From Candidatus Aegiribacteria sp. (GTDB taxonomy: Bacteria > Fermentibacterota > Fermentibacteria > Fermentibacterales > JCC-6), in the NCBI GenBank assembly GCA_013138965.1, contig WTBT01000058.1:815-64814 (forward strand): 64,000 nucleotides of DNA. The letters run 5' to 3'. The position numbers were made by a program, and so were the translations under genes. Shown piece after piece: positions 9,470 to 63,907 of the stretch (positions within the stretch are counted from its first letter, which is position 1; each line of letters begins with the position of its first letter). The notes beneath the pieces are model-generated. The model did not search any database. It was not told the origin of the DNA and saw only the letters and a program-made list of their open reading frames with translations.

Positions 9470-9500
9470 AACCAGACTGCTATTCGAGAGGAGATCGTGC

Positions 9501-10373
9501 ATGAAACGGATAACACTCCCACTCTTACTTGGTATTACACTCATTCTGGCGGGAGGTTCGCTATTCGCTCAACCGGTCGATGCTGATGCACCTGCAGACA
9601 GCACCCCAGCCGATTCCATGCCGGTTGATTCTGCTTCCGTTCAGGAAGATTCGGTTGCAACCGCTCCAGCTCCAGAACCGGCTGAACCGGAGATCGTAAC
9701 AGCTGTTGAAGAGGAAGCTGAAGAAATAGAAGAGGGAGGGCTATTCTCCGATATGGCTCAGTTCTTCCGTGATGGCGGACCGGCAATGTGGGCCATTCTC
9801 ATATTCCTTGCAGCCGGAATAGCGATAGTAGTCGAGAGATTCATATTCCTGTTCTCTATTGCCGATATGAAGCCGGAAAAATTCATGGGCAGGATATCCG
9901 AATTCATAAGAAAGGGCAGTATCGAAGGAGCAATCGCCTCGTGCGCGGATAAGAGTGCTCCACTTGCCCGCATAATTGAAGCCGCTCTTAGAAATTATAG
10001 AAATACTGAACGTGATATACAGAATGCCGTTGATGAGATGGCGCTTGCGGAACTGCCCCGGCTCAATGCACGGACTGGATATCTCGCAATGCTGGCAAAC
10101 GTTTCAACCATGGTTGGCCTTCTGGGTACCATTTTCGGACTGATAGCCGCCTTCGAATCGGTTGCGGCAGCTGATCCTGCAGAAAAAAGCATAATGCTTG
10201 CAAACGGTATTTCAATGGCAATGAGTACAACAGCATTCGGATTGATGGCAGCCATACCCCTTCTGATAGCTCATTCCTTCTTTACCGCTAAGACCGATAA
10301 CCTGATCGACGACATTGACAGGTATTCTGTCATGATTATCAATATGCTTGCTCAGGCCAGGAAGGAAGGCTGA
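9501..10373 (+). CDS. exbB: MotA/TolQ/ExbB proton-channel family protein with an N-terminal signal peptide and a periplasmic acidic/Pro-rich extension (Bacteroidetes-type ExbB).
   Basis: Start chosen at MKRITLPLLLG, which has an AGGAG ribosome-binding site (RBS). C-terminal half has 3 TM helices and the MotA/TolQ/ExbB signature (...LGTIFGLIAAF...). Confidence 0.75.
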   Translation: MKRITLPLLLGITLILAGGSLFAQPVDADAPADSTPADSMPVDSASVQEDSVATAPAPEPAEPEIVTAVEEEAEEIEEGGLFSDMAQFFRDGGPAMWAILIFLAAGIAIVVERFIFLFSIADMKPEKFMGRISEFIRKGSIEGAIASCADKSAPLARIIEAALRNYRNTERDIQNAVDEMALAELPRLNARTGYLAMLANVSTMVGLLGTIFGLIAAFESVAAADPAEKSIMLANGISMAMSTTAFGLMAAIPLLIAHSFFTAKTDNLIDDIDRYSVMIINMLAQARKEG

Positions 10374-10933
10374 TGGCAAAAGCAGCGACTGGTAGAAGTC
10401 ACAGAATCAGGCATGTGTCGGAGCTTGATCTCCTCCCGGTCATGAACCTGTTTTGTGTAATAATACCATTCCTGCTTCTGAGCGCGTCATTTCTGGAAAT
10501 TACAATTATCGAGATGTCTCCAACTGAAGGCATCAGTACAGGAGCTGGAACCACAAGTCTGGCCCAGTCGGAGGAACAGCAGCTTCAGCCCAAGATAATC
10601 TTGACTAATGAGGAAATGTTTCTGGGCACGGTATTCGGAACAAGGTCAATCGGCAGAGTGTTCCTGGAAGACAGGCACGGGGAAATGGTGAACACCTACG
10701 ATTACGATGCTCTCTCTGATGCTCTCGGAGATTTCAGGGAAGAGCTTGACGGAGCTTTTCCAACCATTCCCGTGCATAAGATAACAATTCTTACGGTTGA
10801 TGATGTCCGATACGATAATATTGTTATGACAATCGATGTGTGCGCCTATCATGCTTTTGACCAGCCCGGCCTGCAGGTGGCAGCGTATAACGTACTTCAG
10901 CGACAGATCTTTGCGGGAGCAGCAGGTGAGTAA
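10373..10933 (+). CDS. exbD: ExbD/TolR biopolymer transport protein.
   Basis: N-terminal LDLLPVMNLFCVIIPFLLL TM helix followed by a periplasmic domain, typical of ExbD/TolR. Translationally coupled to exbB (ATGA overlap). Confidence 0.7.
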   Translation: MAKAATGRSHRIRHVSELDLLPVMNLFCVIIPFLLLSASFLEITIIEMSPTEGISTGAGTTSLAQSEEQQLQPKIILTNEEMFLGTVFGTRSIGRVFLEDRHGEMVNTYDYDALSDALGDFREELDGAFPTIPVHKITILTVDDVRYDNIVMTIDVCAYHAFDQPGLQVAAYNVLQRQIFAGAAGE

Positions 10934-10936
10934 ATC

Positions 10937-11473
10937 ATGAGCGCGCCAACCAAACGTCATCTCCCCCTTACGCTGGGATACAGGAAAACTAAAGCAGTTG
11001 TCAGGGGTAAGGATAAGAAGGTAACACTGAATCTTACATCCATGATTGACATGTTCACCATTCTGGTGGTCTTCCTGCTTAAGAGCTACAGTGCCGAGGG
11101 ACAAATCGTTTCACTCAGTGACGCGCTTACTCTGCCCGAGTCAAGTTCTGAACGGAAGATTGAGTTGAACCTTGAGATAATAGTGACAAATGATGCAATA
11201 ATCGTAGACGGGGAACCTATTGTATTCGTAGATGAGTTAATTTTGAGTGAAGGCAATCCCATTCCTGTCCTTGTGGAAAGACTTTCTGACCATCTGGAAT
11301 ATACCAGGCAGATGCGTGGTATCATAGATGAGACGGAAATGAGGGTTAACATTCAGGGAGACGTCGCAACCCGGGCTATTCTTCTTCAGAGAGTCATGAG
11401 CAGCTGTGCCCAGGCGGGCTACACCACCCAGAATCTGACCGTAATCAAGGTGGAAGGTGACGATGAACAATGA
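10937..11473 (+). CDS. exbD: ExbD/TolR biopolymer transport protein, second paralog.
   Basis: LTSMIDMFTILVVFLLKSY TM helix plus an ExbD-like periplasmic domain. Tandem to the first exbD. Confidence 0.7.
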   Translation: MSAPTKRHLPLTLGYRKTKAVVRGKDKKVTLNLTSMIDMFTILVVFLLKSYSAEGQIVSLSDALTLPESSSERKIELNLEIIVTNDAIIVDGEPIVFVDELILSEGNPIPVLVERLSDHLEYTRQMRGIIDETEMRVNIQGDVATRAILLQRVMSSCAQAGYTTQNLTVIKVEGDDEQ

Positions 11474-36844: not shown

Positions 36845-37029
36845 TTGTTCACCCCCTCCCATCAACTATAGCGTAAAGCTATAAGGTGGAAAACTTAATG
36901 TCAACCCCCGAAATATATTATAATTGTGTGGTATATGAAGCTATACCGATGATTGTGGGTCAACAGGGAGGAGGATATAGATTTATAATACACATATATA
37001 AATATATTAATTAATGAAAATAGTATAAA

Positions 37030-39222
37030 TCAAAAGTTACTTACATGCTGTTCAATTTTTATATCCGGAATATCTATGATGTTGATCTTGAAATAGAATC
37101 CGCTGTCTACATCGGAAATATGTCTGACGAATACAGCCTCCCAGCAGTGAAGGTCGCGTCGAAGGGTATAACTCTGGTTGATGAAATTCTCGCTCAATGC
37201 ATCGTAGTAAGCGCTGTATTCCAGCGACCAGCCCGGTGTCAGATCAAGCGAAGCGGAGAAACGGAACTTGCTTATACTCTCGGTATCTTCAAAGCCGTGC
37301 CTGTAGTAATGGGAGATGATCATTCTGAGAGGCATGCCCGTTCTTGTAGTACCTGAATCGGGAAGAAGGGTTCGATCGTATCCGGAAAGACGCAGTGATG
37401 AGGATACGGATAGATTGGTAAGTTTATTCTCGTAAAGGTCCCAGCTTCCGTTACCTGTAATACTGAAGCGTGAAGTGGGTGAAATATCAAGGGTTGCCGA
37501 AAGAGGAGAAAAAGGTGTTACACTCTCCTCCAGGTTCACGGATGTGGACAGACTAAGTGAGGCTATATCGAAACGGGTAATTCTGTCCCTCTCCGACATC
37601 TTTCCCTCCAGTCTATTCCTGAGGCTGAACGAGATGGTTCGTCTGGACGATGGAAGGCCGAAATCCGAGAAGGTGTAGTATTCATATCCCGCAGAATCGG
37701 AGTTCATCAAACCATTTCTGTTCAGATACAGCTCAGGCGCCCATTGGAGGGATAGGCTTGGAGTTATCGTGTGTCTGAGCGCATCCAGGCCGAAGAGTCG
37801 TGTGCCGAAGATACCGTAGATATCAGTTGAAATCGACAGATTCACCGATCCATGAAGCCACCATGGGAAATTATCATCGTTCCTGTCACGGTCATATATG
37901 GTTCCCTTTGTATGTATTGAAGGTGCTATTGAAAGCCAGCCCCATAATCTGCTGGATCCGGTAAGTCCCGAAGTTAGTTTAAGAGCTGAGTTTGTGGCCC
38001 TCGATTCCTCCATTCTCCTGTCCCTTGAGAGGTAGTGCGCGCTTGCATTCCAGTAGATGGAATGCCATGGACGGACAAGCGAGGGGTCTGAAGGTGTTCT
38101 GAAAAGGGGAGCTGAAGGGAGAGAAAGCCTGATGTCAGGGAGTTCCTGGTCAGATTCAACCTCTCCCGGAATTGTGTCAGGATCAGTATTCAGGTAACTT
38201 GTCCGATCCAATACAGCCTGGAAACTCATTCTGCCGAAATATCTGTTCACACTAACCCAGGAATGCAGCTCTCCCGTCATACGATCCTCAGGGTTCTGCT
38301 GGGTTTCTTCAAGGTAGGATTTATCACTGAGAAACTCACCCTGTACTCTTACCGTAGTCCCGTCCGGAAAATCATGCAGATGGTTTCCGAATAGCATCCA
38401 TCTGTCACGGTGGGTTAGAAATTCTCTTCTCCATTCTGTTCGGAGGTTTCCATAGCATAAGTATCTTACCCGGTGTCTCTCCTCGGCTGCGAGTACGAAC
38501 CTGGTCTTTTCCATTATATCTCCGTGTACCCACAGATCAGCGTAATCCGAGAAAACAAAGTAGTAGCCGAATTCCCTCAGATACCTGCCGTCCCTGCTGG
38601 TCTGCCCGAATTTGGGCATTGTGAATCCGGGCTGTCGCCCCCTTCTTATCGGGAAAACCCAGTATGGAAAATAGAGAACAGGCGTGTTTTCAACGTACAG
38701 GTACACCGGTCTGGCAACAGCCTTGTCATCAGGGAATACTTTCATTACGGGACAATAGAAATAGAAATGCATACTGTCTTCATCGCATGTTGTGAATCTG
38801 GCATCAACTATGTTGAATTCGTTAGGGCCTATCCGCGTTATCGTCGCGCCGCTGTAGAATCCAAATTCGTACTGCGAAGCCGCGTTAATTATGCGTCCTT
38901 TTCGAGTCGGAATACTGTATATCATCCCGTTACCGAATATCGCTTCTCCGCGATCCAGTAGTTCGGATTCACCTCCGGCAGTGATGATCTCATCCTCTGC
39001 GGAGTATTCTACGGTATCCGATTTTAACGTCATGTCCCGGTAATCAAGGCTTGCAGATCCTATCAGTATCAGGTCACCGGTGTCCGGGTAGAAAACCATT
39101 GAATCAGCAGAATACGCGATCGTTTCAAGTCTCTCCGCGGTAAGCGTAGAATCCCTTGAAGTGCTGTCTGGTTCTGGAGTATCGGTTGCAAAAAGTGTCA
39201 TTAAGATCAGAAAAAATGTCAT
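37030..39222 (-). CDS. lptD: LPS-assembly outer-membrane protein LptD-like (OstA N-terminal domain plus a large beta-barrel).
   Basis: N-terminal ...DSMVFYPDTGDLILIGSASLDYRDMTLKSDTVEYSAEDEIITAGGESELL resembles the OstA/LptD N-terminal domain. A 730 aa aromatic-rich barrel. LPS-gene neighbourhood. Confidence 0.5.
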   Translation of the reverse strand: MTFFLILMTLFATDTPEPDSTSRDSTLTAERLETIAYSADSMVFYPDTGDLILIGSASLDYRDMTLKSDTVEYSAEDEIITAGGESELLDRGEAIFGNGMIYSIPTRKGRIINAASQYEFGFYSGATITRIGPNEFNIVDARFTTCDEDSMHFYFYCPVMKVFPDDKAVARPVYLYVENTPVLYFPYWVFPIRRGRQPGFTMPKFGQTSRDGRYLREFGYYFVFSDYADLWVHGDIMEKTRFVLAAEERHRVRYLCYGNLRTEWRREFLTHRDRWMLFGNHLHDFPDGTTVRVQGEFLSDKSYLEETQQNPEDRMTGELHSWVSVNRYFGRMSFQAVLDRTSYLNTDPDTIPGEVESDQELPDIRLSLPSAPLFRTPSDPSLVRPWHSIYWNASAHYLSRDRRMEESRATNSALKLTSGLTGSSRLWGWLSIAPSIHTKGTIYDRDRNDDNFPWWLHGSVNLSISTDIYGIFGTRLFGLDALRHTITPSLSLQWAPELYLNRNGLMNSDSAGYEYYTFSDFGLPSSRRTISFSLRNRLEGKMSERDRITRFDIASLSLSTSVNLEESVTPFSPLSATLDISPTSRFSITGNGSWDLYENKLTNLSVSSSLRLSGYDRTLLPDSGTTRTGMPLRMIISHYYRHGFEDTESISKFRFSASLDLTPGWSLEYSAYYDALSENFINQSYTLRRDLHCWEAVFVRHISDVDSGFYFKINIIDIPDIKIEQHVSNF

Positions 39223-39232
39223 CCGGTCCTAT

Positions 39233-39308
39233 GTCTTCCCATAATAGCGGCTCCCTCTGCCCCCGCGTCGGAACTTGACGGCAGAACATTCACGTTCCAG
39301 ACGAGTGT
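39233..39308. repeat. Direct repeat copy 1 (~66 bp core). A displaced duplicate of the ROK glucokinase 3' end. On the minus strand it still encodes WNVNVLPSSSDAGAEGAAIMGR, then a stop after 4 more codons.
   Basis: Aligned by eye to 44083-44154. 62/66 identical, with all 4 mismatches at synonymous third-codon positions of the glk reading frame. Confidence 0.8.
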
Positions 39309-39819
39309 ACTAAAAATAAACTGGATTTTCAGCCTCAAATAATCTTTAGCGTTTATCCGGTTCCCTATATCTTAACAGTTCCTATCCAGTTTTGGTAATA
39401 TGAGGGGAGTGCTATCGGCGTCAACGCCGGTGTTCCATTGAAAAGGTGTATATGTTTCATCCGGATTTAATGGCGGCTGGACAGAGAGGGGGTCCAGAAA
39501 TTCCTCCACCGGGTTTCGACCATTTTCGGTTCGGAACAAAAGAAGAACTCTACTTCAGTTTAGATGAATAAATTGAAAATTAGGATTGTAGCGGTCAGAT
39601 GAACAGTGTCAGAAGTTGATTCCGGTACGTTGGGAAATCAAGTATCCTACTGATCATGGTAGCGCATGACATTGACGGGGCAGGAATATTGATCGTATAA
39701 TCATTGTAGTTAACAAATTCGGTCGGATAGGAAAAGTCAGATTGTTCTTCAGAGTATTGCAGAATGGAAGAATATATAGTTCCCCGCATTGGTGTTCTGC
39801 AGGTTAACCCGAAAGGTAG

Positions 39820-42039
39820 TTGAATATGCATATACCACATAAAAATGTTGTGATGGGTGTAGTTATTTTATTGTCACTGCCGTTATTTTTGATATATGCT
39901 CAAAATGATCCGGTAACCGTGCTATTGCAAGAAGACAGCATCGTTGCGGCGGTTGACTACACGATTAACAATACATCATCAGGTTTTGAGGCAACTTTTA
40001 CCATAACAAATACCGGCACCGAGACAATTATCTATTGGGGTCTGGAATTTGACTGGGACAGGACAATATCATCTATCTGGGATGCCGAGATTGTCAGTGT
40101 AGTCGGGGGTCATTATAAAATAACCAATGTTGGCTGGAACGCTAATATTGCGCCGGGGGAAAGTGTTTCCTTCAGCTGTATCGGAACTCCTGATACAAAT
40201 TCGGTACCGGCCAATATTGTAGTAACCTGCAATAATCTTGAGATACCACCTGATGTTCCCTGTGATGAGCTGGCGATCGTTTATGAAACAATATCTGAAG
40301 ACAGCAGTTCATTCAGCGGTCTGGCGCTGCTTGCAAATCCCAATGCCGAATACGCCTGGAACGGCAATTTCTTTGCTGTCAGATCGGTTCAATTTTTGAC
40401 TACATCAGAAATAATAAAAATCGAAAGTACTAACGGTCCGGTGGATCATGTTCAGACTGGGAATATCGTAAATATCTATCTGGGGTGGCAAAGTATGTTC
40501 CCTTTAGGAAGTTCATTGTATCTAATAATTGAGGGTAGTAAACAGGGAGGACAGGTTTATCCGGCGGAATTTTCAGTCCACTATGTAAGGTCTGAAGAAA
40601 TCAGGTATCCTTTTTACGATACCTTACCGGAGAGCTGGTATAAAGGAAAAGAAGATCTTACTTCAGCCGATCTGATAATAGATCCGCTTGTCTATTATAG
40701 CGATACCCCTCAACCAATTAACGAATATTTAATAATCTATGAGCCGAACAACACGACACAAATTCAGATTGGGCAGGTTGATTCAATGTCCTATCCGGTC
40801 AATACCGTTGATGGGGTCAGGATATGGGTTCCTACGCAATTAATGGCTATGGGCATTGGAATGGTATATGAATTTTTCAAGATCAATCCCAATTACATGT
40901 GCGCACTGGGTACCAAAGAGAATTTTGCGGCTGGTGTCGTAAGAGAAAATGTCGGCAGCGCCAGCAACCCGGTTATAATCGATGGCGAAATATGGTATTG
41001 GCCTATTATCGCTCATCCGGATGGACCTTATCAGCAGGAAACCGGAAACTTCAATGATTGTAAATCATTCTTTCCCGATTTTTTTCCGGACAATGCTGTT
41101 CATGATGATTATACTGCAATCACAGTGGATTTTACCAATCCCAACTGGATATCATCGGGGATATCTTCTGCGATAAGTATTTCGGTAACAAGAGAGATGC
41201 TGAACGCGTTTAATATAGACTATAACGGATTCATGGATAATGCAGTGGATCCCTGGGCAGAATTTTCGATTATAACCTATGCTTATAATCGCGGTATAAA
41301 CGATTTTTTAACGAAAAAATTATTCACAGATAACCGCGCACTTGCTTTAGCGTCACCAAACATTGCCGAAGAATTCGGTATGGGCGGATTCGCAAATCAT
41401 GTGCCGACTGTCCGTGCCATTACAGACGAGATGAACAAAGCGCTCTATGATATATATGATGCTCAGATCAGCCGGGAAGATATGGAGATATTCTTTGCCA
41501 GACTGCGCATGTTCTATGCTCGCGGTGTGCCATCGGATCCCGAATGGAACGCGATGGTACAGGATATCTTCCGGGCATTTGATGTTCTTGCTGAACACTG
41601 GCAGGGAAATTACATCTCTTTCCGATACGACTATCTGACATTACTGAGGATCATCAGGGAGTATCTGCCGGTACCCCATAATCCTCGACCAACCGGTCAA
41701 GACTGGTATTACCAGGTTATCAATGCAGATCCTGGTACTGGTATTGCTGAAGGTAGAGTAAACACCGATATTTTAGCAAACCAGACAATAAAGGTTTACC
41801 CCAATCCGGTCAGGGGCGGTCTAGCCTCGGCAGCCTTCAGCCTGCCTGAGCAGCAGCAGATAACACTGACAATTTACGATATCACCGGCAGACAGGTAAT
41901 GGTTGCGGCGGAAGGCATAATGAGCGAAGGAATAAACCAGGTAAGCATCAACACTTCAAACCTCACCACAGGCATATATTTCGCAAGGCTGACATCTGGA
42001 GATATTTCGGCAACGACGCGAATGGTCATCATAAGATAA
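39820..42039 (+). CDS. Secreted protein of unknown function (739 aa) with a signal peptide and a T9SS (Por secretion system) C-terminal sorting domain.
   Basis: C-terminus KVYPNPVRGG...ITLTIYDITGRQV...TGIYFARL...RMVIIR matches the Por_Secre_tail pattern. N-terminal hydrophobic signal. Confidence 0.6.
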   Translation: MNMHIPHKNVVMGVVILLSLPLFLIYAQNDPVTVLLQEDSIVAAVDYTINNTSSGFEATFTITNTGTETIIYWGLEFDWDRTISSIWDAEIVSVVGGHYKITNVGWNANIAPGESVSFSCIGTPDTNSVPANIVVTCNNLEIPPDVPCDELAIVYETISEDSSSFSGLALLANPNAEYAWNGNFFAVRSVQFLTTSEIIKIESTNGPVDHVQTGNIVNIYLGWQSMFPLGSSLYLIIEGSKQGGQVYPAEFSVHYVRSEEIRYPFYDTLPESWYKGKEDLTSADLIIDPLVYYSDTPQPINEYLIIYEPNNTTQIQIGQVDSMSYPVNTVDGVRIWVPTQLMAMGIGMVYEFFKINPNYMCALGTKENFAAGVVRENVGSASNPVIIDGEIWYWPIIAHPDGPYQQETGNFNDCKSFFPDFFPDNAVHDDYTAITVDFTNPNWISSGISSAISISVTREMLNAFNIDYNGFMDNAVDPWAEFSIITYAYNRGINDFLTKKLFTDNRALALASPNIAEEFGMGGFANHVPTVRAITDEMNKALYDIYDAQISREDMEIFFARLRMFYARGVPSDPEWNAMVQDIFRAFDVLAEHWQGNYISFRYDYLTLLRIIREYLPVPHNPRPTGQDWYYQVINADPGTGIAEGRVNTDILANQTIKVYPNPVRGGLASAAFSLPEQQQITLTIYDITGRQVMVAAEGIMSEGINQVSINTSNLTTGIYFARLTSGDISATTRMVIIR

Positions 42040-42244
42040 TGCTGGAACACATGGAGCCGCGTGCAGATCCCTGGCCTCCAACCAGAGTCTTTGGAGAATC
42101 ACGGCTGGAAAGAAGATATTGGGGCATTCTTCAGGGCAGTATTGCAGATCGTGGGAAACCCAGGTTACTATTGGTCTGATTTTAATTATTGAATGTTCTG
42201 AAGCTATACATTAAATCAGCGAATTTCCTGTTAGGAAGTGGAAA

Positions 42245-43789
42245 ATGGCAGTCTATCGGAAAATTGTTTTTCCTGCGGCATTACTTTTCATCGCGGGAGG
42301 GGTTCAGGGTGTTGGATTCGAGAAGAACATAGTCGGCTACTTCACTTCATGGTCGGTGTATGTGCGCAATTACCATGTTACTGATATCCCCGCTGACCGG
42401 GTGAATTACATCAACTACGCCTTTGCAAATATCAATCCGGCGACAGGTGAGATCGTCCTGGGTGATGCATATGCCGATATAGATAAGTGGTATCCCGGAG
42501 ACAGCTCGCATCCGGACAGTTTGCGGGGATCATTTCACCAACTGCAGATACTGAAGGCTGAAAATCCGCATATCAGAACCCTCATATCCGTAGGAGGCTG
42601 GACCTGGTCAACCTATTTCTCCGATATTGCGCTGACTCCGGTATCCAGAGAGACCTTTGCGCTATCATGCGTTCAATTCATTCAGGAGTATGACTTCGAC
42701 GGAGTTGATATCGATTGGGAATATCCCGTGGAAGGTGGGCTTCCCGGAAACATCTATCGCCCGGAGGACAAAGAGAACTTCACGGCTCTTCTCGCCGAAC
42801 TCAGGTATCAGCTGGACATAGCGGGTGATGACTACCTTCTCACAGTGGCGACCACTGCCTCTCCCGTCTACATAGAGAACATTGAACCGGATCAGATACA
42901 CCAGTATCTTGACTGGATAAATGTGATGACCTATGACTTCCATGGTCCCTGGGGTGGAGAATCCGACGCTTTCACGAATTTCAACTCACCACTTTACATG
43001 AACCCGGAGGATCCTCTGGGAGAACCATATCATTCCTTCTTCAATCTCTCCGCAGCGATCGAAGGGTACATCGGCAAAGGAGTTCCTGCGCAGAAGATTC
43101 ACGCAGGAATCCCCTTCTACGGCAGGGGGTATGCCAATGTGGAGAATGAGAACAATGGGCTTTACGTCTCCTATTCCGGACCGGCTGTTCCCGGTACCTG
43201 GGAGCCGGGCTGCTTCGATTACTGGGATCTCTCCCAGAATTACATCGACAAGAACGGCTACGTCAGTTACTGGCAGAATGATGCACAGGTTCCCTGGCTG
43301 TACAATCCAACGGAACAGAAAATGATTACCTATGATGATCCCCGATCAATTGTTGCCAAGGCCGAATTCATCAATTCCCTGAATCTGGGCGGGGCGATGT
43401 TCTGGGAGTTTCAGGCGGATAAGTATTCCGAACTGCTTGACTCTCTCTATCTGATTCTGAACGATTCGCTCCAAACCGCGGTAGGAGACAGTAATGGACA
43501 GCCTGTCGTTCCCGGCCTGATCCGGCTCAACAACTATCCGAATCCCTTCAGGCAGAGCACGACAATCGAGTTCAGCCTGCCGTACGCTTCTCCTGTTAAG
43601 CTGAGAGTGTATGATGCATCGGGGCGTATCGTCTCTACGTTGTCTTCCTCGAACTGCCCGGGCGGGATGAATTACATCATCTGGAATGGTGTTGATGACT
43701 GTAACAGACCTCTTCCGTCTGGTGTGTATCATTGTCATCTGAGTACCGAGGATACCTTCATAAACAGGCGATTGCTGATGATGCACTGA
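42245..43789 (+). CDS. Glycoside hydrolase family 18 chitinase with a T9SS C-terminal sorting domain.
   Basis: Catalytic FDGVDIDWEYP (DxxDxDxE). Signal peptide. C-terminal NNYPNPFRQSTTIEF...VKLRVYDASGRIV...SGVYHCHL. Confidence 0.85.
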   Translation: MAVYRKIVFPAALLFIAGGVQGVGFEKNIVGYFTSWSVYVRNYHVTDIPADRVNYINYAFANINPATGEIVLGDAYADIDKWYPGDSSHPDSLRGSFHQLQILKAENPHIRTLISVGGWTWSTYFSDIALTPVSRETFALSCVQFIQEYDFDGVDIDWEYPVEGGLPGNIYRPEDKENFTALLAELRYQLDIAGDDYLLTVATTASPVYIENIEPDQIHQYLDWINVMTYDFHGPWGGESDAFTNFNSPLYMNPEDPLGEPYHSFFNLSAAIEGYIGKGVPAQKIHAGIPFYGRGYANVENENNGLYVSYSGPAVPGTWEPGCFDYWDLSQNYIDKNGYVSYWQNDAQVPWLYNPTEQKMITYDDPRSIVAKAEFINSLNLGGAMFWEFQADKYSELLDSLYLILNDSLQTAVGDSNGQPVVPGLIRLNNYPNPFRQSTTIEFSLPYASPVKLRVYDASGRIVSTLSSSNCPGGMNYIIWNGVDDCNRPLPSGVYHCHLSTEDTFINRRLLMMH

Positions 43790-43845
43790 CGCGCTGATCC
43801 AATCTTGACAAAGGCAATACAAGATCACCCGTAATTGGCTTGGGT

Positions 43846-44010
43846 GAGAAGGTCCGTCGAGTGTACATTCCCAAGAGTAATGGCGGTGAAAGACCGTTGG
43901 GTATCCCTGCGCTGGAAGATAAACTGGTGCAGATGGCTTGCACGAAGCTTTTAACAGCTATCGAGTATCTCATCTGGCGCTTTCCACAACTGAACCGGAA
44001 AGCTGCACCA
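43846..44010 (+). pseudogene. Internal fragment of a group II intron-type reverse transcriptase (RT domains 1-2 only), truncated at both ends.
   Basis: EKVRRVYIPKSNGGERPLGIPALEDKLVQMACTKLL matches the conserved R.V.IPK.nGg.RPLGIP...DR.vQ.A block of group II intron RTs. A stop lies immediately upstream and homology is lost after about 55 aa. Confidence 0.5.
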
Positions 44011-44024
44011 GGCGTTGCTATTGA

Positions 44025-44969
44025 TTACATGGAATCTGTATCGTTGTCATTTTCCAAATCTGCAATGTTCTGCTTTGTATTTCTTCCCATGATAGCGGCT
44101 CCCTCCGCTCCCGCATCGGAACTTGACGGCAGAACATTCACGTTCCACGAGTAGCGGCATCTATCATTGAATTCCGATTCGGCGTGTCCCAGGAAGAATT
44201 CCGATGCCCCCATCAGGCCTCCCGCTATGAAAACACCGCCCGGACTGAAGCAGTGGTAAAGATTCGCAAGGCCTATACCGAGCCATGTTCCGAATTCCTT
44301 AAAAGCTTTTAGCGCCGCATCCTGTTTCATTGAAGCCAGTTGAGCTATTTCCTTTGGAGAAATGCACATACTGTTGTTGCCGTGTTTTCTGTAGTACTCG
44401 CTCAGGGCTCCTGATGCCGCATATCTCTCCCAGCATCCCTTTGACCCGCAGGGGCAATTCTTTCCGGACGCCTCTACCGTCATATGGCCGAATTCGCCGG
44501 CGAATCCAGATCCGTAAAGGATATTGCCGTCATGGATTATTGTTCCGCCTATGCCGGTTCCAAGGGTTATCATCAGCCAGAGACCGGAATCGGGTATGCT
44601 GGAGGATTCGATGGCCTGTATGGCGAAGACGCTGCAATCGTTATCTATTACAACGGGACAGTTGAGGATAGTCGACAGCTTGCAGCGGATAGGGTAATCT
44701 TTCCACCCGGGAAGGTTCGCGGAAAAGACAACCACTCCCTCGGATCTGTTCACAAGGCCGGCAATGCCAACACCTGCGGAACAAGGGGCATGATCAATCT
44801 CATCAATTGTCTTACTTATCTTTCGCAACAGTGAGTCCGGTCCTGATGAAGGATCGGTTTTCAGGGTTGCCGCTTTTACAAACCCTCCCGGCTTCAGATA
44901 ACCAAGAATTGTCGTGGTTCCGCCGATATCGATCCCCCAGTGCATTCCGCTGACAGGTGAATTACTCAA
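44025..44969 (-). CDS. glk: ROK-family glucokinase / sugar kinase.
   Basis: WGIDIGGTTT N-terminus, CxCGxxGC zinc motif (CPCGSKGC) and C-terminal SDAGAEGAAIMG, typical of ROK kinases. A 20 aa C-terminal tail differs from that of repeat copy 1. Confidence 0.75.
   Translation of the reverse strand: MSNSPVSGMHWGIDIGGTTTILGYLKPGGFVKAATLKTDPSSGPDSLLRKISKTIDEIDHAPCSAGVGIAGLVNRSEGVVVFSANLPGWKDYPIRCKLSTILNCPVVIDNDCSVFAIQAIESSSIPDSGLWLMITLGTGIGGTIIHDGNILYGSGFAGEFGHMTVEASGKNCPCGSKGCWERYAASGALSEYYRKHGNNSMCISPKEIAQLASMKQDAALKAFKEFGTWLGIGLANLYHCFSPGGVFIAGGLMGASEFFLGHAESEFNDRCRYSWNVNVLPSSSDAGAEGAAIMGRNTKQNIADLENDNDTDSM
44083..44154. repeat. Direct repeat copy 2 (~66 bp core). Forms the actual 3' end of the ROK glucokinase gene.
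   Basis: See copy 1 (39233-39308). On the minus strand it encodes ...WNVNVLPSSSDAGAEGAAIMGRN.... Confidence 0.8.
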
Positions 44970-46644
44970 TGCTTACTATCTCTCCGTCAATCACCCTGAC
45001 CAGAGGGAAAGCGGAGCGCGGGATAGATACGCTGCCAAGAGTACACATACCTGTAGCCCCGAAGTATATGTTCAGGGTTTCAAGATGATTTTCCAGGGAT
45101 GATCGGGAAGGGATCGATCCTTTCCACGCGTTCAGTATTATTTCCGCGGTATCGTATCCCTGGGCTGCCAGCATTGTGGGCATGGAATCGTATTTCCTCT
45201 CATAGAAATATGAAAATCTTGCTGTTGCGGGATTCATGGAGGCGGAGCCGAAGGAAACGGGGAAGACCGCGCCTTCAACGTATTCGCCACCCTGTTCCAG
45301 CAGTATTTCATCGTCCCATCCAGATGTTCCGAAGAGCTGGGATTCAACACGGTAGAATCTCAGTTGAGGGGCGAGCTGAATAGCATCCCATGCGTTTACA
45401 GGAAGGAATATACCCTCGGGCTGCTGGTATTTTATAGCGTTTATCTGATCTTTGTAATCGGTTGATCCTGATTCGTACCCCTCCATGCCTACGATCTCGC
45501 TGCCCAGTTCCTGTACTACGGAACTGAACTGCTCGGCGTTGGCCACCGATTCAGAAGTGAATTCGTGAATTATCGCAAGCGTTCTGCAGCCGGCATTTCG
45601 TACCGCGTATTCAGCTACAGCAGCAGCGTCGTCTCCCTGTGATACAACCAGCCTGTGCACATAATTACCGTAATCATCCAACTCCGAAGATGTCGCTGCA
45701 GGTGTTATCATGGGAAGAGACCACCTCTGTGCCAGAGGAGCCGCCAGTTCGGCGTTTCTGCTGGTAAGCGGCCCGATTACAGCCAGACACGAAGGATTCG
45801 GGCCCAGTGAGTTTAATATTTCCTCGATATCCGCGCTGTCGCCGGAGCAATCGAAAGTGATGAGGAAAGGCAGAGAAATGAACAGCCCCGATGACATTTC
45901 GAAGGCAAGATCCACACCGGATCTGACCCTTTCGGCGTATGTGGATCCTTCACCACTGAGGGGCAGAATCAGGGCGACGAAACCGTCTTCATGGATCGCG
46001 AAAACCGGTCTGCCGTATCGCTGATGAGCTTCAGGAAAGAGCCTGTCTATCTCCATCCCTGTCAGAATTGCCCTTTCGGTGTTTCCCTCTGCCGCGTATC
46101 TGTTTTCCAGTTCAAGAAGGAAGAAGACCTCCGTCCATCCTGTAGATGGTTCAGTGGTAAGATAGTCCATGTCCACTTTTTCAAGCGTAAGGCGTATCAA
46201 TTCCACAGCGGATTCCGATTCACCCCGGTCGAGATGATCCTGCTGCATGTTCGAGAGTGTTTCGATGCCGTTTCTGAAGGATCCCTGTTCTATTTTAACC
46301 TGGGAGAGGAGCAGCATGGCACTGGCTTTACCGTGCGAATCGATTGCGCTGCGCAGAGAATGTAATGCCGCTTCCGATGCTTCCTCAAGACGGTCGAGAG
46401 CCAGGAGGGACCTTCCCCTTCCAAACTGCCAGGAGGAGTACAGAGGGTTGTCCGGAAAGTCTTCAATAGCCCTGGAGTAGTATCTCAGAGATGCAGAGAC
46501 ATCTCCCGAACTGAAGGCACCTTCGGCCAGGGCGGTCAAGCCTTCGGGTGAATTTTCATCCTTCACGGGGGCGCATCCCATGATCGATACAACAAGAAAA
46601 ATCAGTACAGTAACCAGCGAAAGAAGAATACAGTTCTTCAACAA
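44962..46644 (-). CDS. Lipoprotein with N-terminal TPR-like helices and a C-terminal periplasmic-binding-protein (Leu/Ile/Val-binding-like) domain; LpoA-like.
   Basis: Lipobox ...SIMGC. C-terminal half resembles the type I periplasmic binding fold (LAVIGPLTS...). Confidence 0.4.
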   Translation of the reverse strand: MLKNCILLSLVTVLIFLVVSIMGCAPVKDENSPEGLTALAEGAFSSGDVSASLRYYSRAIEDFPDNPLYSSWQFGRGRSLLALDRLEEASEAALHSLRSAIDSHGKASAMLLLSQVKIEQGSFRNGIETLSNMQQDHLDRGESESAVELIRLTLEKVDMDYLTTEPSTGWTEVFFLLELENRYAAEGNTERAILTGMEIDRLFPEAHQRYGRPVFAIHEDGFVALILPLSGEGSTYAERVRSGVDLAFEMSSGLFISLPFLITFDCSGDSADIEEILNSLGPNPSCLAVIGPLTSRNAELAAPLAQRWSLPMITPAATSSELDDYGNYVHRLVVSQGDDAAAVAEYAVRNAGCRTLAIIHEFTSESVANAEQFSSVVQELGSEIVGMEGYESGSTDYKDQINAIKYQQPEGIFLPVNAWDAIQLAPQLRFYRVESQLFGTSGWDDEILLEQGGEYVEGAVFPVSFGSASMNPATARFSYFYERKYDSMPTMLAAQGYDTAEIILNAWKGSIPSRSSLENHLETLNIYFGATGMCTLGSVSIPRSAFPLVRVIDGEIVSIE

Positions 46645-46714
46645 ATACCTCCCGGATGCAGTAAATATATAGATAGTGAATATGAGTCACGCAGCGAATC
46701 CGGAAAAGGGTAAA

Positions 46715-46746
46715 GAAGAACCCGGAGAAAAGACTCCGGGTTCTTC
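46715..46746 (-). terminator. Rho-independent terminator hairpin (GAAGAACCCGGAG-AAAAGA-CTCCGGGTTCTTC) downstream of the SurA-like gene.
   Basis: Perfect 13 bp stem read directly in the 120 bp gap between co-directional minus-strand genes. Confidence 0.55.
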
Positions 46747-46763
46747 AATCGACTGGGAAGCTC

Positions 46764-48038
46764 TTATTCTCCTGAAGAGTCCGTAATAACATCCTCTTCT
46801 ATCAGAGGAATAGTTTCGATGAAAAGGCTTTCAGGAGGTGTACCCATGTTCTCGATCATCCATTCCGCGTCGTCAACAAAATCCGATTCAGGATAGTTAT
46901 CTATCAGCTGCTGGAAAGCATCAGCAGCCTTTTCATAATCGCCAGTGTATTCCGACAGGGTGAAGCCCATAAGGAATTGTGCCTGGTGAGCATTCTCATG
47001 ATCGGGGAAACGCTGGATGAACAATTTGTAGTATTGCACTGCTGACTCGGGGTTTGATTCCATCAGGTTCTGCGCTGACTGGAAGAGTGAATCGGGCTCC
47101 ACGCTTTCATCGGGCAGGAAAGCATCCTCATTTATGGTAACACCGTAGCTTTCTCTGAGCCTTGGAACAACGGTATCCTGGAAGTATGAATTGACCAAAG
47201 TGGGTTTGAGGGTGTTTTCAATGGATTCTCTTACTTCTTCGAGTGGGCGTGCGCCCTCATCCCTCTTATCCGTAACCGTAAAATAGTGAACGCCCATTGC
47301 TGTGGAGAAGGGTCCGAGAATATCATCGATGTCGGCGTCGAACAGCGCTTCCGAGATATCTGCCTGTTCTCCCAGGTAGGGCAATGGCGAGTTTATCGTT
47401 ACCCAGCCCATATCACCACCTGAAGGCATGGTGGGTGCATGCTCACTGAACGTTGTAACGACCGATTCGAAAGTGTCTCCGGCTTCCAGCGCTGCAGCCA
47501 CATCGGCCGTAGCATCTTCGGATGAAACGATTACTTGAGAAACCTTAACCTGGTGTTCCTGATAGTAAATGTCATCAACATGGTCATTGTAGTAGGCCAG
47601 AATATCTTCTTCCGGTATTACCACAGCATCTACGATTTCCTGTTGGTAGTAGGTCTGCAGGAGAGCTCTATCCCTGGCTGATTCAACCTGCTGCATGGCC
47701 AGTTCTACCTGCGCGATTACGAAAGAGTCTTTTTCGAGCCCCAGGTTCATAGCTTCAAGCAGCAGCAGTTCCCGTTCGATGATATGATCCAGAAGAAGCC
47801 TTTTTCCCTCCGGAGTCTCAAATGAGGATCTCTGATAGGGAGGTATCAGCTCCAGCTCTTTATTAATAGCTTTCTCGGTGATTTCCATTTCACCAACTGT
47901 GGCCAGAACACGGGTTGTATCGGCATTGTTGCCGTGGTTCAGTCTTTCCTGTGTTCCACATGCGCCTGCGGCAAGAATCAACATACCTGCGAAAATATAG
48001 ATAAATCTCATAAACACGGTTTCCTTTCCATGATTCAA
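46764..48038 (-). CDS. Periplasmic peptidyl-prolyl cis-trans isomerase (parvulin domain, SurA/PpiD-like) with a C-terminal TPR-like region.
   Basis: Signal peptide. Parvulin-like block VKVSQVIV...GGDMGWV. SurA-like N-terminal chaperone region. Confidence 0.55.
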   Translation of the reverse strand: MNHGKETVFMRFIYIFAGMLILAAGACGTQERLNHGNNADTTRVLATVGEMEITEKAINKELELIPPYQRSSFETPEGKRLLLDHIIERELLLLEAMNLGLEKDSFVIAQVELAMQQVESARDRALLQTYYQQEIVDAVVIPEEDILAYYNDHVDDIYYQEHQVKVSQVIVSSEDATADVAAALEAGDTFESVVTTFSEHAPTMPSGGDMGWVTINSPLPYLGEQADISEALFDADIDDILGPFSTAMGVHYFTVTDKRDEGARPLEEVRESIENTLKPTLVNSYFQDTVVPRLRESYGVTINEDAFLPDESVEPDSLFQSAQNLMESNPESAVQYYKLFIQRFPDHENAHQAQFLMGFTLSEYTGDYEKAADAFQQLIDNYPESDFVDDAEWMIENMGTPPESLFIETIPLIEEDVITDSSGE

Positions 48039-63268: not shown

Positions 63269-63907
63269 TTATTTAATCAGTTCTTCGAGTCCACTATTGT
63301 AGATTCTTCTCTTAAGCAAACTCATAGATACTTCAAATTGTGGAACTAACTTAATAGCAATATTCTCTATAACAGGATCTAGATAGTCTTTTCTACGGAG
63401 TTTTGCTGCCTTTGCATCAGATATTTGATCTTGAGTAGAAGGTAAGACTTCTAAGAACAAAGAGGTCAAGTATCGAGTCGGTACAAGTATCATTCCAGCA
63501 AATGTATACCCTTGATATTCAAAGCGTTGCCTGATATTATCTTTCATACTATTATAAAAATCCATCCAACTATATTTATCATGTACTCCATGATCAGATG
63601 CTGCTTGGTTAAGAATATCTTTGTGAAGTTCGAAATGACCAACTTCATGAGCTAGTGTTGCACGGGCGCGGTTCTCGCAGTTCGTATAAACATGTTCATC
63701 TATGTATATGCTTGACCAATTTGCAAGTGTGAATCCTTCTATATCCAAATCTTGCTGCATATTAGTAACAGGTATGATCTCTATATTTAAATCATCCTCA
63801 ATAATCATTTCAATATCGATGGGTATCTCATCATCACGCCCGAGTCTATTAAGAAGCCCATTAGCTTTATCATCGATAGTTTCGTTCTCAAGCCAAGGGA
63901 GATACAT
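63269..63907 (-). CDS. ImmA/IrrE-family (DUF955) metallo-endopeptidase in an AT-rich region.
   Basis: ATLAHEVGHFELH, an HExxH zinc-binding motif in the context typical of ImmA/IrrE. Local GC is about 35% versus about 52% for the rest of the window. Confidence 0.5.
   Translation of the reverse strand: MYLPWLENETIDDKANGLLNRLGRDDEIPIDIEMIIEDDLNIEIIPVTNMQQDLDIEGFTLANWSSIYIDEHVYTNCENRARATLAHEVGHFELHKDILNQAASDHGVHDKYSWMDFYNSMKDNIRQRFEYQGYTFAGMILVPTRYLTSLFLEVLPSTQDQISDAKAAKLRRKDYLDPVIENIAIKLVPQFEVSMSLLKRRIYNSGLEELIK

What the first reader, a model, noticed from the sequence alone, without database searches (positions are those of the whole stretch)
39233..44154. A ~4.9 kb insert bounded by att-like direct repeats derived from the glucokinase 3' end, carrying two T9SS-cargo genes and an RT fragment
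Two ~66 bp direct repeats lie at 39233-39308 and 44083-44154. Copy 2 is the real 3' end of the minus-strand ROK glucokinase gene. Copy 1 sits about 4.8 kb downstream, just upstream of lptD, and still encodes the same 22 aa (WNVNVLPSSSDAGAEGAAIMGR) on the minus strand. The 4 nucleotide differences between the copies are all synonymous third-position changes (gat/gac, gga/ggg, gcg/gca, atc/att). Homology stops exactly at the codon after GR, where the two tails diverge (copy 2 NTKQNIADLENDNDTDSM, copy 1 HRTG then stop). This is the pattern left by an integrative element that inserts into the 3' end of a protein-coding gene and brings its own, independently evolved copy of that 3' end (attL/attR). 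Between the repeats lie a T9SS-cargo protein of unknown function, a GH18 chitinase with a T9SS tail, a ~500 bp noncoding leader and a group II intron-type RT fragment that abuts copy 2. No integrase is present, which suggests a decayed element or a different mobilisation route. Elements that target a gene 3' end and deliver secreted glycan-active cargo are little described in T9SS-bearing lineages.
Basis: partly seen in the sequence, partly recalled or inferred. Interest (0 to 1): 0.7.

Follow-up and report, generated by a model that had tools for sequence, protein, structure and literature searches.

The report
Old gene islet splitting glk and lptD
The repeats are real and mark an old insertion between a sugar-kinase gene and the essential outer-membrane gene lptD in uncultured Aegiribacteria, but it is a fixed islet with no integrase whose contents were later swapped for two chitinase genes, not a currently mobile element.

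Summary
The repeat is confirmed: 39230-39299 and 44078-44147 are 65/70 identical, and both encode WNVNVLPSSSDAGAEGAAIMGR on the minus strand.

In at least 16 related loci of Ca. Aegiribacteria/Fermentibacteria, the ROK kinase gene (glk) ends ...IMGRNRTG*, and its TGA overlaps the lptD ATG (ATGA). This is the empty site. Copy 1 is that ancestral end, still in place.

Five lineages, including the window, carry an insert here. All five share the same right junction, an 81-nt glk-end relic with no indel or stop, and a near-invariant 49-nt sigma70-like promoter block facing lptD. In the four sister loci the cargo is a membrane protein, a DUF5128 lipoprotein and a GNAT, in various stages of deletion, and glk keeps its normal tail.

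The window lineage replaced that cargo (39448-44077). It now holds a CBM2 + ChiD-type chitinase, a GH18 chitinase and a roughly 50-aa relic of a group II intron-type RT. The replacement clipped the last four glk codons, which explains the divergent tails.

None of the five versions carries a recombinase, and none was found among the 44 large ORFs of the window.

Best reading: one old Campbell-type insertion, later cargo turnover, and retention of copy 1 as the lptD leader. Interest is modest.

The parts
37030..39222 (-). lptD (730 aa), the essential outer-membrane LPS-assembly gene. In the ancestral state its ATG overlaps the glk stop codon (ATGA).
   Evidence: Pfam LptD_2 at 6e-47. Orthologues at 63-92% aa in 15 genomes. 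The ATGA overlap is visible in all loci.
39219..39299 (-). Copy 1 (copy B): an 81-nt relic of the glk 3' end, running from the W codon to the TGA. It sits in its original position against lptD. Positions 39230-39299 are the part shared with copy 2. Proposed role: lptD 5' leader and translation-initiation region.
   Evidence: It is present at the same length, with no indel or stop, in all 5 insert-bearing loci. Mean pairwise identity is 78% (3' half 84.5%), against 55% with indels in the adjacent spacer.
39300..39381 (-). Poorly conserved spacer between the promoter block and copy 1. It is the right end of the ancestral insert.
   Evidence: Alignment A2. 55% mean identity and a 24-nt indel.
39382..39430 (-). 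Conserved 49-nt block holding a sigma70-like promoter that faces lptD: -35 TTGACG at 39424-39419, a 16-nt spacer, and -10 CATATT at 39402-39397.
   Evidence: Promoter scan. The block is 100% identical in L004, L012 and L024, 98% in L018 and 91% in the window. It is absent from empty-site loci.
39448..44077 (.). Window-specific segment that replaced the ancestral cargo (mem315, DUF5128 lipoprotein, GNAT).
   Evidence: Homology to L004/L012 stops at 44080 on one side and resumes near 39426-39447 on the other. No trace of the ancestral cargo is left in the window.
39672..39701 (+). Best promoter-like site of the region (TTGACG-18-TATAAT, 11/12), upstream of the first chitinase gene.
   Evidence: This is a consensus match only.
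39820..42039 (+). 739-aa secreted protein made of CBM2, a ChiD-type chitinase domain (aa 154-638) and a T9SS C-terminal sorting domain. An alternative ATG start lies at 39853.
   Evidence: Pfam CBM_2 and Por_Secre_tail. phmmer against PDB 5XSV chitinase gives E 7e-129. AF2 model has pLDDT 90.5, and Foldseek gives TM 0.91/0.96 and rmsd 1.5 A.
42245..43789 (+). 514-aa GH18 chitinase with an FlgD_ig/T9SS C-terminal domain.
   Evidence: Pfam Glyco_hydro_18 at 4e-89. TIGR04183 scores 28.7 bits against a cut-off of 23. Nearest relatives are only 62% aa identical.
43798..43995 (+). Relic of a group II intron-type reverse transcriptase (motifs RT1-2, about 50 aa). It is truncated at both ends and carries a frameshift and a stop.
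   Evidence: PDB RTs at E 1e-5 to 2e-6. PHROG reverse transcriptase at 6e-8. Three-frame reading. No intron RNA domains were found.
44025..44077 (-). New 3' tail of glk (..TKQNIADLENDNDTDSM*), created when the replacement joined foreign sequence 12 nt before the ancestral stop.
   Evidence: All other glk genes end NRTG* or a close variant.
44078..44147 (-). Copy 2 (copy A): the functional glk 3' end, 70 nt shared with copy 1.
44025..44969 (-). ROK-family sugar kinase (glk), 314 aa instead of the usual 292-304.
   Evidence: Pfam ROK at 6e-48. It scores below all NCBIfam equivalog cut-offs. Homologue lengths are listed.

Best explanation
The interval is this lineage's version of an old, now immobile islet. 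It was inserted exactly at the stop/start overlap (ATGA) of glk and lptD in an ancestor of one Aegiribacteria clade.

Shown:
- The ancestral state is glk|lptD with overlapping TGA/ATG.
- One insertion duplicated the last 81-92 nt of glk.
- The upstream copy completes glk. The downstream copy stays glued to lptD.
- The insert's right end carries a highly conserved sigma70-like promoter block pointing at lptD.
- The original cargo (membrane protein, DUF5128 lipoprotein, GNAT, in sense orientation) decayed by internal deletions in sister lineages.
- In the window lineage it was replaced by an antisense block holding two T9SS-secreted chitinases (CBM2-ChiD-type and GH18) and an RT relic. This clipped four codons off glk and fused 18 new ones.

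Inferred:
(a) The founding event was a Campbell-type single crossover of a circular DNA that carried a copy of the glk end running exactly to the stop codon. The enzyme is unknown: it could be a since-lost site-specific recombinase or RecA.
(b) Copy 1 persists because it is the lptD 5' leader. lptD has no good Shine-Dalgarno sequence of its own and was translationally coupled to glk. The relic keeps the ATGA junction and an internal GGAGG-N8-11-ATG mini-ORF (MGRxRxG*) that can load ribosomes and hand them to lptD, while the new promoter supplies transcription.
(c) The unusually high similarity between the window's two copies comes from gene conversion.
(d) The cargo swap used ordinary recombination, with the duplicated glk end and the promoter/relic block as flanks.
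For: Empty site with ATGA overlap:
- Seen in L001-L003, L005-L011, L013-L017 and L019.
- These include the deepest branches, so empty is the ancestral state.

Five filled loci with one architecture:
- Copy A ends at TGA and the insert follows at once.
- Copy B starts at the W codon, or about 10 nt before it.
- There is no further homology upstream of copy B.

Evidence for a single origin:
- Shared right junction and 49-nt block.
- Derived substitutions in copy B follow the host tree: AAC>ATC in L012/L018/L024, CGG>AGG in WIN/L004.
- WIN and L004 share a 24-nt spacer indel.
- The filled loci group together in the lptD and concatenated NJ trees.

L004, L018 and L024 keep stubs of the deleted genes.

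Conservation gradient among the five: block 92.7% > copy A 88.9% > copy B 3' half 84.5% > copy B 78% > spacer 55%.

Codon changes against the A consensus: copy A 2 nonsynonymous to 20 synonymous, copy B 24 to 33.

Shine-Dalgarno motifs precede 25/44 ORFs against a 20% background, so Shine-Dalgarno-dependent initiation is used here.

Gene conversion in the window: its A/B identity is 62/66 against 48-55/66 in the other four, and both copies share a derived T in the N/H codon.

No mobility gene anywhere.

Independent assembly support comes from the Logan contig.
Against: - Bootstrap support for monophyly of the filled loci is weak (24% lptD, 65% concatenated). In the left-flank tree the window falls just outside. 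Single origin therefore rests mainly on the shared insert-specific sequence.
- The promoter is only a consensus match plus conservation. No transcription data exist, and the promoter grammar of this phylum is unknown.
- No conserved start codon precedes copy B, and no covarying RNA structure was found. The leader/mini-ORF role is an inference.
- The partial excess of synonymous change in copy B could come from repeated gene conversion rather than translation.
- The mechanism of the founding event cannot be read from the sequence.
- All loci are MAG or metagenome contigs.
Confidence: 0.68

Rival explanations
1. The present 4.85-kb interval is one integrative element that entered the glk 3' end as a unit. 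It carried its own diverged copy of that end (attL/attR) and the chitinase cargo, and it has lost its integrase or is mobilised in trans.
For: Direct repeats derived from the gene's 3' end. Empty sites in relatives. The differences between copies are synonymous (P about 0.004-0.01 if neutral). An RT relic suggests past mobile DNA. The chitinase genes are foreign-looking: nearest relatives are 62-63% aa, and the ChiD-type gene has 41-44% GC against about 50% in the flanks.
Against: The same repeats, right junction and promoter block enclose unrelated cargo in four sister lineages. The chitinase block ends inside the older insert (39448) and inside copy A (44077), not at the repeat boundaries. 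The divergent tail is absent from the sister loci. There is no recombinase. The two chitinase genes are not linked elsewhere. Viral contigs gave no match.
Confidence: 0.06
2. The founding event, not the present cargo, was integration by an e14/phage-21-like element with a site-specific recombinase. Its attP carried an 81-92-nt mimic of the glk end. The recombinase and the rest of the element were later deleted, leaving a grounded remnant.
For: The geometry matches e14 in icd, where the prophage supplies the gene's terminal codons and a 163-bp pseudo-icd is left at the far end (PMC6379469; PMC13626634). Copy A homology ends exactly at the stop codon and copy B starts abruptly. This fits a purpose-built gene-end mimic better than a random duplication. 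Internal deletions are frequent in this islet.
Against: No recombinase or phage/ICE gene was found in five independent versions. The left junction leaves only about 90-110 nt between TGA and the first cargo gene. The cargo gene mem315 is an 87% nt paralogue of a chromosomal accessory gene. Only one integration event is seen, so there is no sign of repeated site-specific targeting. No attP-like match was found in viral contigs.
Confidence: 0.3
3. A hotspot with no mobile element. The duplication arose by a replication or repair accident, or by homology-facilitated illegitimate recombination. All later content changes, including the chitinase block, came in by double homologous recombination in the flanking core genes or the repeats.
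For: Many hotspots lack mobile elements and turn over by recombination at flanking core genes (PMC5635113). Five different contents occupy one site with no mobility genes. The window's placement differs slightly between the left-flank and lptD trees. There is gene-conversion-like similarity between the window's two copies.
Against: No known repair route predicts a duplication that ends exactly on the stop codon. Four of the five contents are explained by simple deletions from one ancestor rather than by new imports. The tree incongruence is within bootstrap noise.
Confidence: 0.3
4. An RT-driven system. Either it is a diversity-generating retroelement in which the two repeats are template and variable regions at a gene's 3' end, or a group II intron made the insertion.
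For: An RT-like fragment lies about 100 nt from copy 2, and the repeats sit at the 3' end of an ORF.
Against: The RT is a relic of about 50 aa, truncated at both ends and frameshifted. The five mismatches are C/T, G/A, A/G, T/C and C/A, so they are not adenine-specific. Copy 1 is the ancestral gene end, present before any RT. The sister loci have the repeats without any RT. No group II intron RNA domains were found.
Confidence: 0.03
5. An assembly artefact, with the insert wrongly joined through the repeat.
For: The source is a MAG contig, and the Logan k=31 contig breaks at the repeat.
Against: The longest exact shared stretch is 32 nt, so any k above 33, or single reads, resolve it. The Logan contig carries the copy 2-specific SNPs joined to the new tail and the insert. 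Four independently assembled genomes show the same promoter/relic/lptD architecture.
Confidence: 0.03

Closest known systems
e14 and phage 21 integration into the 3' end of icd in E. coli, leaving the icdC pseudogene
   Same: An insert sits inside the 3' end of a protein-coding gene. The upstream copy keeps the gene intact. A displaced copy of the gene end (163 bp there, 81 nt here) remains at the far side as a direct repeat, with mostly conservative differences. Recombination between the copies would restore a chimeric functional gene (PMC6379469, PMC13626634).
   Different: Here there is no integrase, excisionase or phage gene. The insert is only 1.3-4.85 kb. It is fixed and vertically inherited in a clade, with no sign of excision. 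The displaced copy is under constraint because it abuts and overlaps an essential gene's start codon. The cargo has been exchanged inside the repeats.
Integration hotspots or flexible genomic islets that lack mobile elements (Oliveira, Touchon and Rocha 2017, PMC5635113)
   Same: One interval between the same core genes holds different accessory genes in related genomes, with no integrase or transposase. Turnover is by deletion and replacement.
   Different: This islet is bracketed by a long direct duplication of a gene end and sits inside an operon at an overlapping stop/start. It also carries its own conserved outward promoter.
Chitinase of PDB 5XSV (deposited as 'archaeal chitinase'; to my knowledge Tc-ChiD of Thermococcus chitonophagus)
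   Same: The catalytic domain of the 739-aa cargo protein is 43% identical and superposes at TM 0.91-0.96.
   Different: The host here is bacterial, and the domain is fused to an N-terminal CBM2 and a T9SS C-terminal sorting domain. Catalytic residues and activity were not checked.

Membership tests
Integrative element of the e14/phage-21 type (site-specific integration into a gene 3' end) | Direct repeats at both ends that derive from the 3' end of the target gene | tested here: met
   70-nt repeat in the window. 81-92 nt in sister loci.
Integrative element of the e14/phage-21 type (site-specific integration into a gene 3' end) | An unoccupied target site with a single copy in related genomes | tested here: met
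   glk abuts lptD in at least 16 loci.
Integrative element of the e14/phage-21 type (site-specific integration into a gene 3' end) | Element-encoded tyrosine or serine recombinase next to an att site | tested here: not met
   Pfam, NCBIfam and PHROGs on all insert ORFs of the window and L012. None among the 44 ORFs of at least 150 aa in the window. The gene tables of L018 and L024 show none.
Integrative element of the e14/phage-21 type (site-specific integration into a gene 3' end) | The insert moves as a unit: the same content between the same ends, found in unrelated hosts or sites | tested here: not met
   Same ends but different content in five lineages. The relic copies follow the host tree. 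The chitinase genes are not linked elsewhere.
Integrative element of the e14/phage-21 type (site-specific integration into a gene 3' end) | The element-borne copy of the gene end has a foreign evolutionary history | tested here: inconclusive
   81 nt is too short to resolve this. There are no fixed A-versus-B differences that set either copy apart from the outgroups.
Integrative element of the e14/phage-21 type (site-specific integration into a gene 3' end) | Excision to a circular form and a restored attB | not testable with these tools
   This needs the raw reads of SRR10375098. The Logan contig cannot separate the two forms.
Integration hotspot lacking mobile elements (PMC5635113) | Different accessory genes between the same two core genes in related genomes, without mobility genes | tested here: met
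   Five content states plus the empty state. No mobility proteins.
Integration hotspot lacking mobile elements (PMC5635113) | Excess homologous recombination in the flanking core genes | tested here: inconclusive
   The left-flank and lptD NJ trees differ in where they place the window, but bootstraps are 24-65%.
Diversity-generating retroelement | Intact DGR-type RT, plus template/variable repeats that differ at template adenines | tested here: not met
   The RT is a relic of about 50 aa. The mismatches are not adenine-specific. Copy 1 is the ancestral gene end.
Group II intron | Ribozyme domains (e.g. domain V/VI) plus a full RT/maturase ORF | tested here: not met
   Rfam finds nothing at gathering threshold across the window, and nothing relevant at E<=1 in 39200-44200. 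Only RT motifs 1-2 survive.
Integron cassette array | IntI integrase, attI, and attC sites between the cassettes | tested here: not met
   No integrase. No repeated attC-like element between genes. The content differences are internal deletions that leave gene stubs.
GH18 chitinase | GH18 catalytic domain | tested here: met
   PF00704 at 4e-89, full length 1-317/317.
ChiD-type chitinase (PDB 5XSV) | Sequence and fold match across the whole catalytic domain | tested here: met
   E 7e-129 over aa 154-638. TM 0.91/0.96 and rmsd 1.5 A. Catalytic residues were not examined.
T9SS type A cargo | C-terminal Por_Secre_tail sorting domain | tested here: met
   TIGR04183 scores 45.5 bits (739-aa protein) and 28.7 bits (GH18), against a cut-off of 23. 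T9SS machinery genes were not searched for.

The most novel reading that the evidence does not exclude
The duplicated glk end and the conserved promoter/relic block may be more than a scar. They could form a dedicated docking site that needs no recombinase, or is served in trans. At this site Aegiribacteria would repeatedly exchange envelope and secreted cargo, here a two-chitinase module. The relic would also work as a minimal coupling cistron that lets an essential gene (lptD) tolerate being cut out of its operon. A variant of this reading is that a group II intron-type retroelement, now reduced to the RT relic at the breakpoint, catalysed the cargo swap.
Probability: 0.1. Interest if true: 0.6.

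Novelty: new member of a known kind. Interest (0 to 1): 0.33.

Why it matters
- It gives a clean natural example of how an insertion can land on an overlapping stop/start codon pair without killing either gene. The gene end is duplicated, and one copy is kept as the leader of the essential downstream gene, with a new promoter.
- It shows that repeats which look like att sites can outlive the element, or non-element event, that made them, and can then frame unrelated cargo. For genome scanning this is a caution: repeats made from a gene's 3' end, with foreign genes between them, do not identify a current mobile element.
- It places a ChiD-type chitinase, so far structurally known from an archaeon, next to a GH18 chitinase. 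Both have T9SS tails and sit in an uncultured FCB-superphylum lineage. This suggests that one Aegiribacteria lineage recently acquired the ability to degrade chitin.

Tried and rejected
- Extended duplication. Local alignment of the 300 nt upstream of copy B against the 300 nt of glk upstream of copy A scored no better than shuffles in all four loci tested. The duplication is only 81-92 nt.
- DGR, integron and intact group II intron readings were all rejected (see the membership tests).
- Conserved RNA structure in the lptD leader. RNAalifold gave a covariation term of +0.2 and one compensatory pair, so there is no support.
- Phage or satellite origin. A degenerate pattern for the glk end and the mem315 protein both found nothing in IMG/VR. 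PHROGs gave no phage functions.
- The chitinase pair as a conserved two-gene module. The closest GH18 loci (L021, L022) and the closest ChiD-like locus (L030) lack the partner gene.
- Another RT copy or paralogous segment in the window or the loci. None was found.
- The metagenome scan with glk returned only two loci, both empty-site.
- An exact-protein look-up of the window glk failed, although the protein is in the homologue database as P0001.
- A 23-nt direct repeat near both inner ends of the L012 insert was judged too weak to interpret.
- The first bootstrap run with Biopython timed out. It was redone with numpy.

Full report
OBSERVATION. The repeat exists. The repeat finder reports a single long direct repeat in 37000-47000: 39230-39299 against 44078-44147, 70 nt, 65/70 identical, 4848 nt apart. 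BLASTN gives E = 4.9e-22 against the window. On the minus strand both copies encode WNVNVLPSSSDAGAEGAAIMGR. Copy 1 continues HRTG*, and copy 2 continues NTKQNIADLENDNDTDSM*. The four differences in the 66 coding nt are synonymous third-position transitions, and a fifth (C/A) makes H versus N in the next codon. The genes are as described: lptD at 37030-39222(-), a 739-aa CBM2/T9SS protein at 39820-42039(+), a GH18 chitinase with a T9SS tail at 42245-43789(+), an RT-like fragment, and a ROK kinase (glk) at 44025-44969(-). A Logan assembly of run SRR10375098 reproduces 39270-44145 at 100% and stops inside the exact 32-nt stretch the copies share. That is the expected behaviour of a k=31 graph at a genuine repeat.

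SOURCE AND EMPTY SITE. A scan of species-representative genomes with LptD returned 15 loci, all from Candidatus Fermentibacteria/Aegiribacteria. Further loci came from glk, GH18 and mem315 homologues. Synteny of SurA-like, PBP/TPR, glk, lptD, HU and a glycosyltransferase is conserved. In at least 16 loci, including the deepest branches (L008, L009, L010, L013, L015) and L019, glk runs straight into lptD. In these loci glk ends ...IMGRNRTG* or a close variant, and in nearly all of them its TGA overlaps the lptD ATG as ATGA. Window copy 1 (39219-39299) is exactly that ancestral glk end, still overlapping the lptD start.

FIVE FILLED LOCI WITH ONE ARCHITECTURE. Besides the window, L004, L012, L018 and L024 have something between glk and lptD.
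- L012 holds three co-directional genes: a 315-aa membrane protein with no Pfam match, a 369-aa DUF5128 six-bladed propeller lipoprotein, and a 156-aa GNAT.
- L004, L018 and L024 are deletion derivatives of this set that still carry stubs of the missing genes.
- In all four, the glk-attached copy (A) is complete to NRTG*, and the insert begins immediately after the TGA.
- The second copy (B) starts at the W codon, or about 10 nt before it, and ends in the ATGA of lptD.
- No further homology to glk lies upstream of copy B.
- The duplication is therefore 81-92 nt, with one boundary exactly at the stop codon.

SINGLE OLD EVENT, NOT REPEATED INTEGRATION. All five loci share insert-specific sequence at the right end. 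This includes a 49-nt block (ATGACGTTGACGACGATAGTACACCCCGCATATTACCAAAACTGGATAG) that is 100% identical in three loci, 98% in L018 and 91% in the window (39430-39382). The block is absent from empty-site loci and from everything else fetched. Copy B carries derived substitutions that follow the host tree: AAC>ATC in L012/L018/L024 and CGG>AGG in WIN/L004. WIN and L004 also share a 24-nt spacer indel. NJ trees of the lptD 5' half and of concatenated flanks group the filled loci together, but bootstraps are low (24% and 65%), and in the left-flank tree the window falls just outside. Single origin therefore rests mainly on the shared junction sequence. Flanking genes of the five are only 82-92% identical at the nucleotide level, so the insertion is old.

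WHAT IS SPECIAL IN THE WINDOW. Homology to L004/L012 stops at 44080 and resumes near 39426-39447. The 4.63 kb in between is unique to this lineage, and none of the ancestral cargo remains. The left breakpoint lies 12 nt before the ancestral stop. glk therefore reads on into foreign sequence and gains 18 new residues, giving 314 aa against 292-304 in every homologue. This breakpoint, and not an element-borne gene end, is why the two tails diverge.

The cargo of the window is as follows.
- First chitinase (739 aa). Residues 154-638 match the chitinase of PDB 5XSV at E 7e-129. An AlphaFold model (pLDDT 90.5) superposes on it at TM 0.91/0.96 and rmsd 1.5 A. The protein is therefore CBM2, a ChiD-type chitinase and a T9SS tail, not a protein of unknown function.
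- Second chitinase. It is GH18 (PF00704, 4e-89).
- Origin of both. Their nearest relatives are only 62-63% identical and are not linked to each other elsewhere. The first gene has 41-44% GC against about 50% in the flanks.
- RT piece (about 43798-43995). It covers RT motifs 1-2 of group II intron-type RTs, is cut at both ends and frameshifted, and has no intron RNA around it.
- Mobility genes. None of the 44 ORFs of at least 150 aa in the window is a recombinase, a transposase or an intact RT.

WHY COPY 1 IS KEPT (INFERENCE). Pairwise identity among the five lineages:

| Region | Mean pairwise identity |
|---|---|
| 49-nt block | 92.7% |
| Copy A | 88.9% |
| Copy B, 3' half | 84.5% |
| lptD | 84% |
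| Copy B, whole | 78% |
| Spacer between block and copy B | 55% (with indels) |

- Copy B has no indel and no stop codon in any lineage.
- Its codon changes against the A consensus are 24 nonsynonymous to 33 synonymous, compared with 2 to 20 for copy A. This indicates partial constraint or gene conversion.
- The 49-nt block contains TTGACG-16-CATATT oriented toward lptD.
- Shine-Dalgarno-like motifs precede 25 of 44 ORFs against a 20% background, yet lptD itself has none at a normal spacing. In the ancestral state it was presumably translated by coupling to glk.
- The best-conserved part of copy B is GGAGCGGAGGGAGC..ATYATGGGARGA. This is a GGAGG 8-11 nt before an in-frame ATG, whose seven-codon ORF ends on the ATGA.
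- I therefore propose that the relic is the lptD leader: the promoter block supplies transcription, and the relic supplies ribosome loading and coupling.
- No conserved upstream start codon and no covarying RNA structure were found, so this proposal remains a hypothesis.

THE SYNONYMOUS PATTERN. The window's copies are 62/66 identical, against 48-55/66 for the A/B pairs of the other four genomes. Both share a derived T in the N/H codon. The other four B copies carry 4-10 amino-acid changes. Recent gene conversion between the window's copies, followed by a few changes, explains the all-synonymous pattern without requiring an independently evolved element copy. Four of four synonymous has P of about 0.004-0.01 under neutrality.

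FOUNDING MECHANISM. The geometry is that of a Campbell-type single crossover of a circle carrying a glk-end mimic. It matches e14 and phage 21 in icd, where the prophage supplies the last codons of the gene and a 163-bp pseudo-icd remains at the far end (PMC6379469; PMC13626634). The exact stop-codon boundary of copy A favours a purpose-built mimic. Against an element: no recombinase or phage gene was found in five versions; the cargo gene mem315 has an 87% nt paralogue in a toxin-antitoxin-rich accessory region of the same genome as L004; and viral contigs gave no match. Hotspots without mobile elements that turn over by homologous recombination are well documented (PMC5635113). I cannot decide between a lost site-specific recombinase (about 0.3) and a route that involves no mobile element (about 0.3). 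Either one is compatible with the history above.

VERDICT. There was an insertion into the glk end with duplication of that end. However, the present 4.85-kb content is not the thing that integrated, the tail divergence is secondary, and nothing indicates current mobility. This is a new member of a known kind: a grounded islet or hotspot framed by a duplicated gene end. It has two features of moderate interest, the relic retained as an essential gene's leader and a ChiD-type plus GH18 chitinase pair with T9SS tails. Interest is about 0.33.

Noticed in passing
It is 43% identical to PDB 5XSV (E 7e-129), and the model superposes at TM 0.91/0.96. No Pfam model covers the catalytic domain. About 40 clusters match at E<1e-30 among 1.8 billion representatives.
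   Followed up: yes
L031 7264-8175 (GCA_030638185.1, the same genome as L004); L029 2541-3452: The islet's membrane-protein gene (mem315) has an 87% nt / 81% aa paralogue elsewhere in the same genome, with homology limited to the ORF. It sits in an accessory region with Fic, toxin-antitoxin pairs, AAA ATPases, methyltransferases and DUF5128 lipoproteins. This hints that the original islet cargo came from within the genome.
   Followed up: partly
window 39230-39299 vs 44078-44147: The window's two copies are more alike (62/66) than any A/B pair in the other four genomes (48-55/66). They also share a derived T in the N/H codon. This suggests gene conversion between the copies.
   Followed up: partly
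window 44025-44969 (-): The 'glucokinase' is a ROK kinase that scores below every NCBIfam equivalog cut-off (glucokinase, GlcNAc kinase, allose kinase and others), so its substrate is open. Its position next to two chitinases is secondary, not ancestral.
   Followed up: no
L012 1996-2018 vs 4842-4864: A 23-nt direct repeat (TCAGGGGAAC..., 78%) lies just inside both ends of the ancestral-type insert. It may be chance.
   Followed up: no
L015 5311-6111 and 6115-7221: There are two adjacent SurA-like matches. This is either a tandem duplication or a split gene in this distant relative.
   Followed up: no
L008 12713-12874; L011 4080-4318: The glycosyltransferase downstream of HU is truncated or replaced in these loci. 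This is a second variable spot two genes away from the islet.
   Followed up: no
window 63269-63907 (-): A Peptidase_M78 (ImmA/IrrE-like) ORF lies at the edge of the window. This family is often associated with prophages or toxin-antitoxin-like modules, and it is the only hint of mobile DNA in the 64 kb.
   Followed up: no
window 4446-8984 (+): A 1512-aa TPR-rich ORF lies upstream of an ExbB/ExbD-like cluster (9435-11473). It looks like a large envelope-associated locus and is unrelated to the finding.
   Followed up: no
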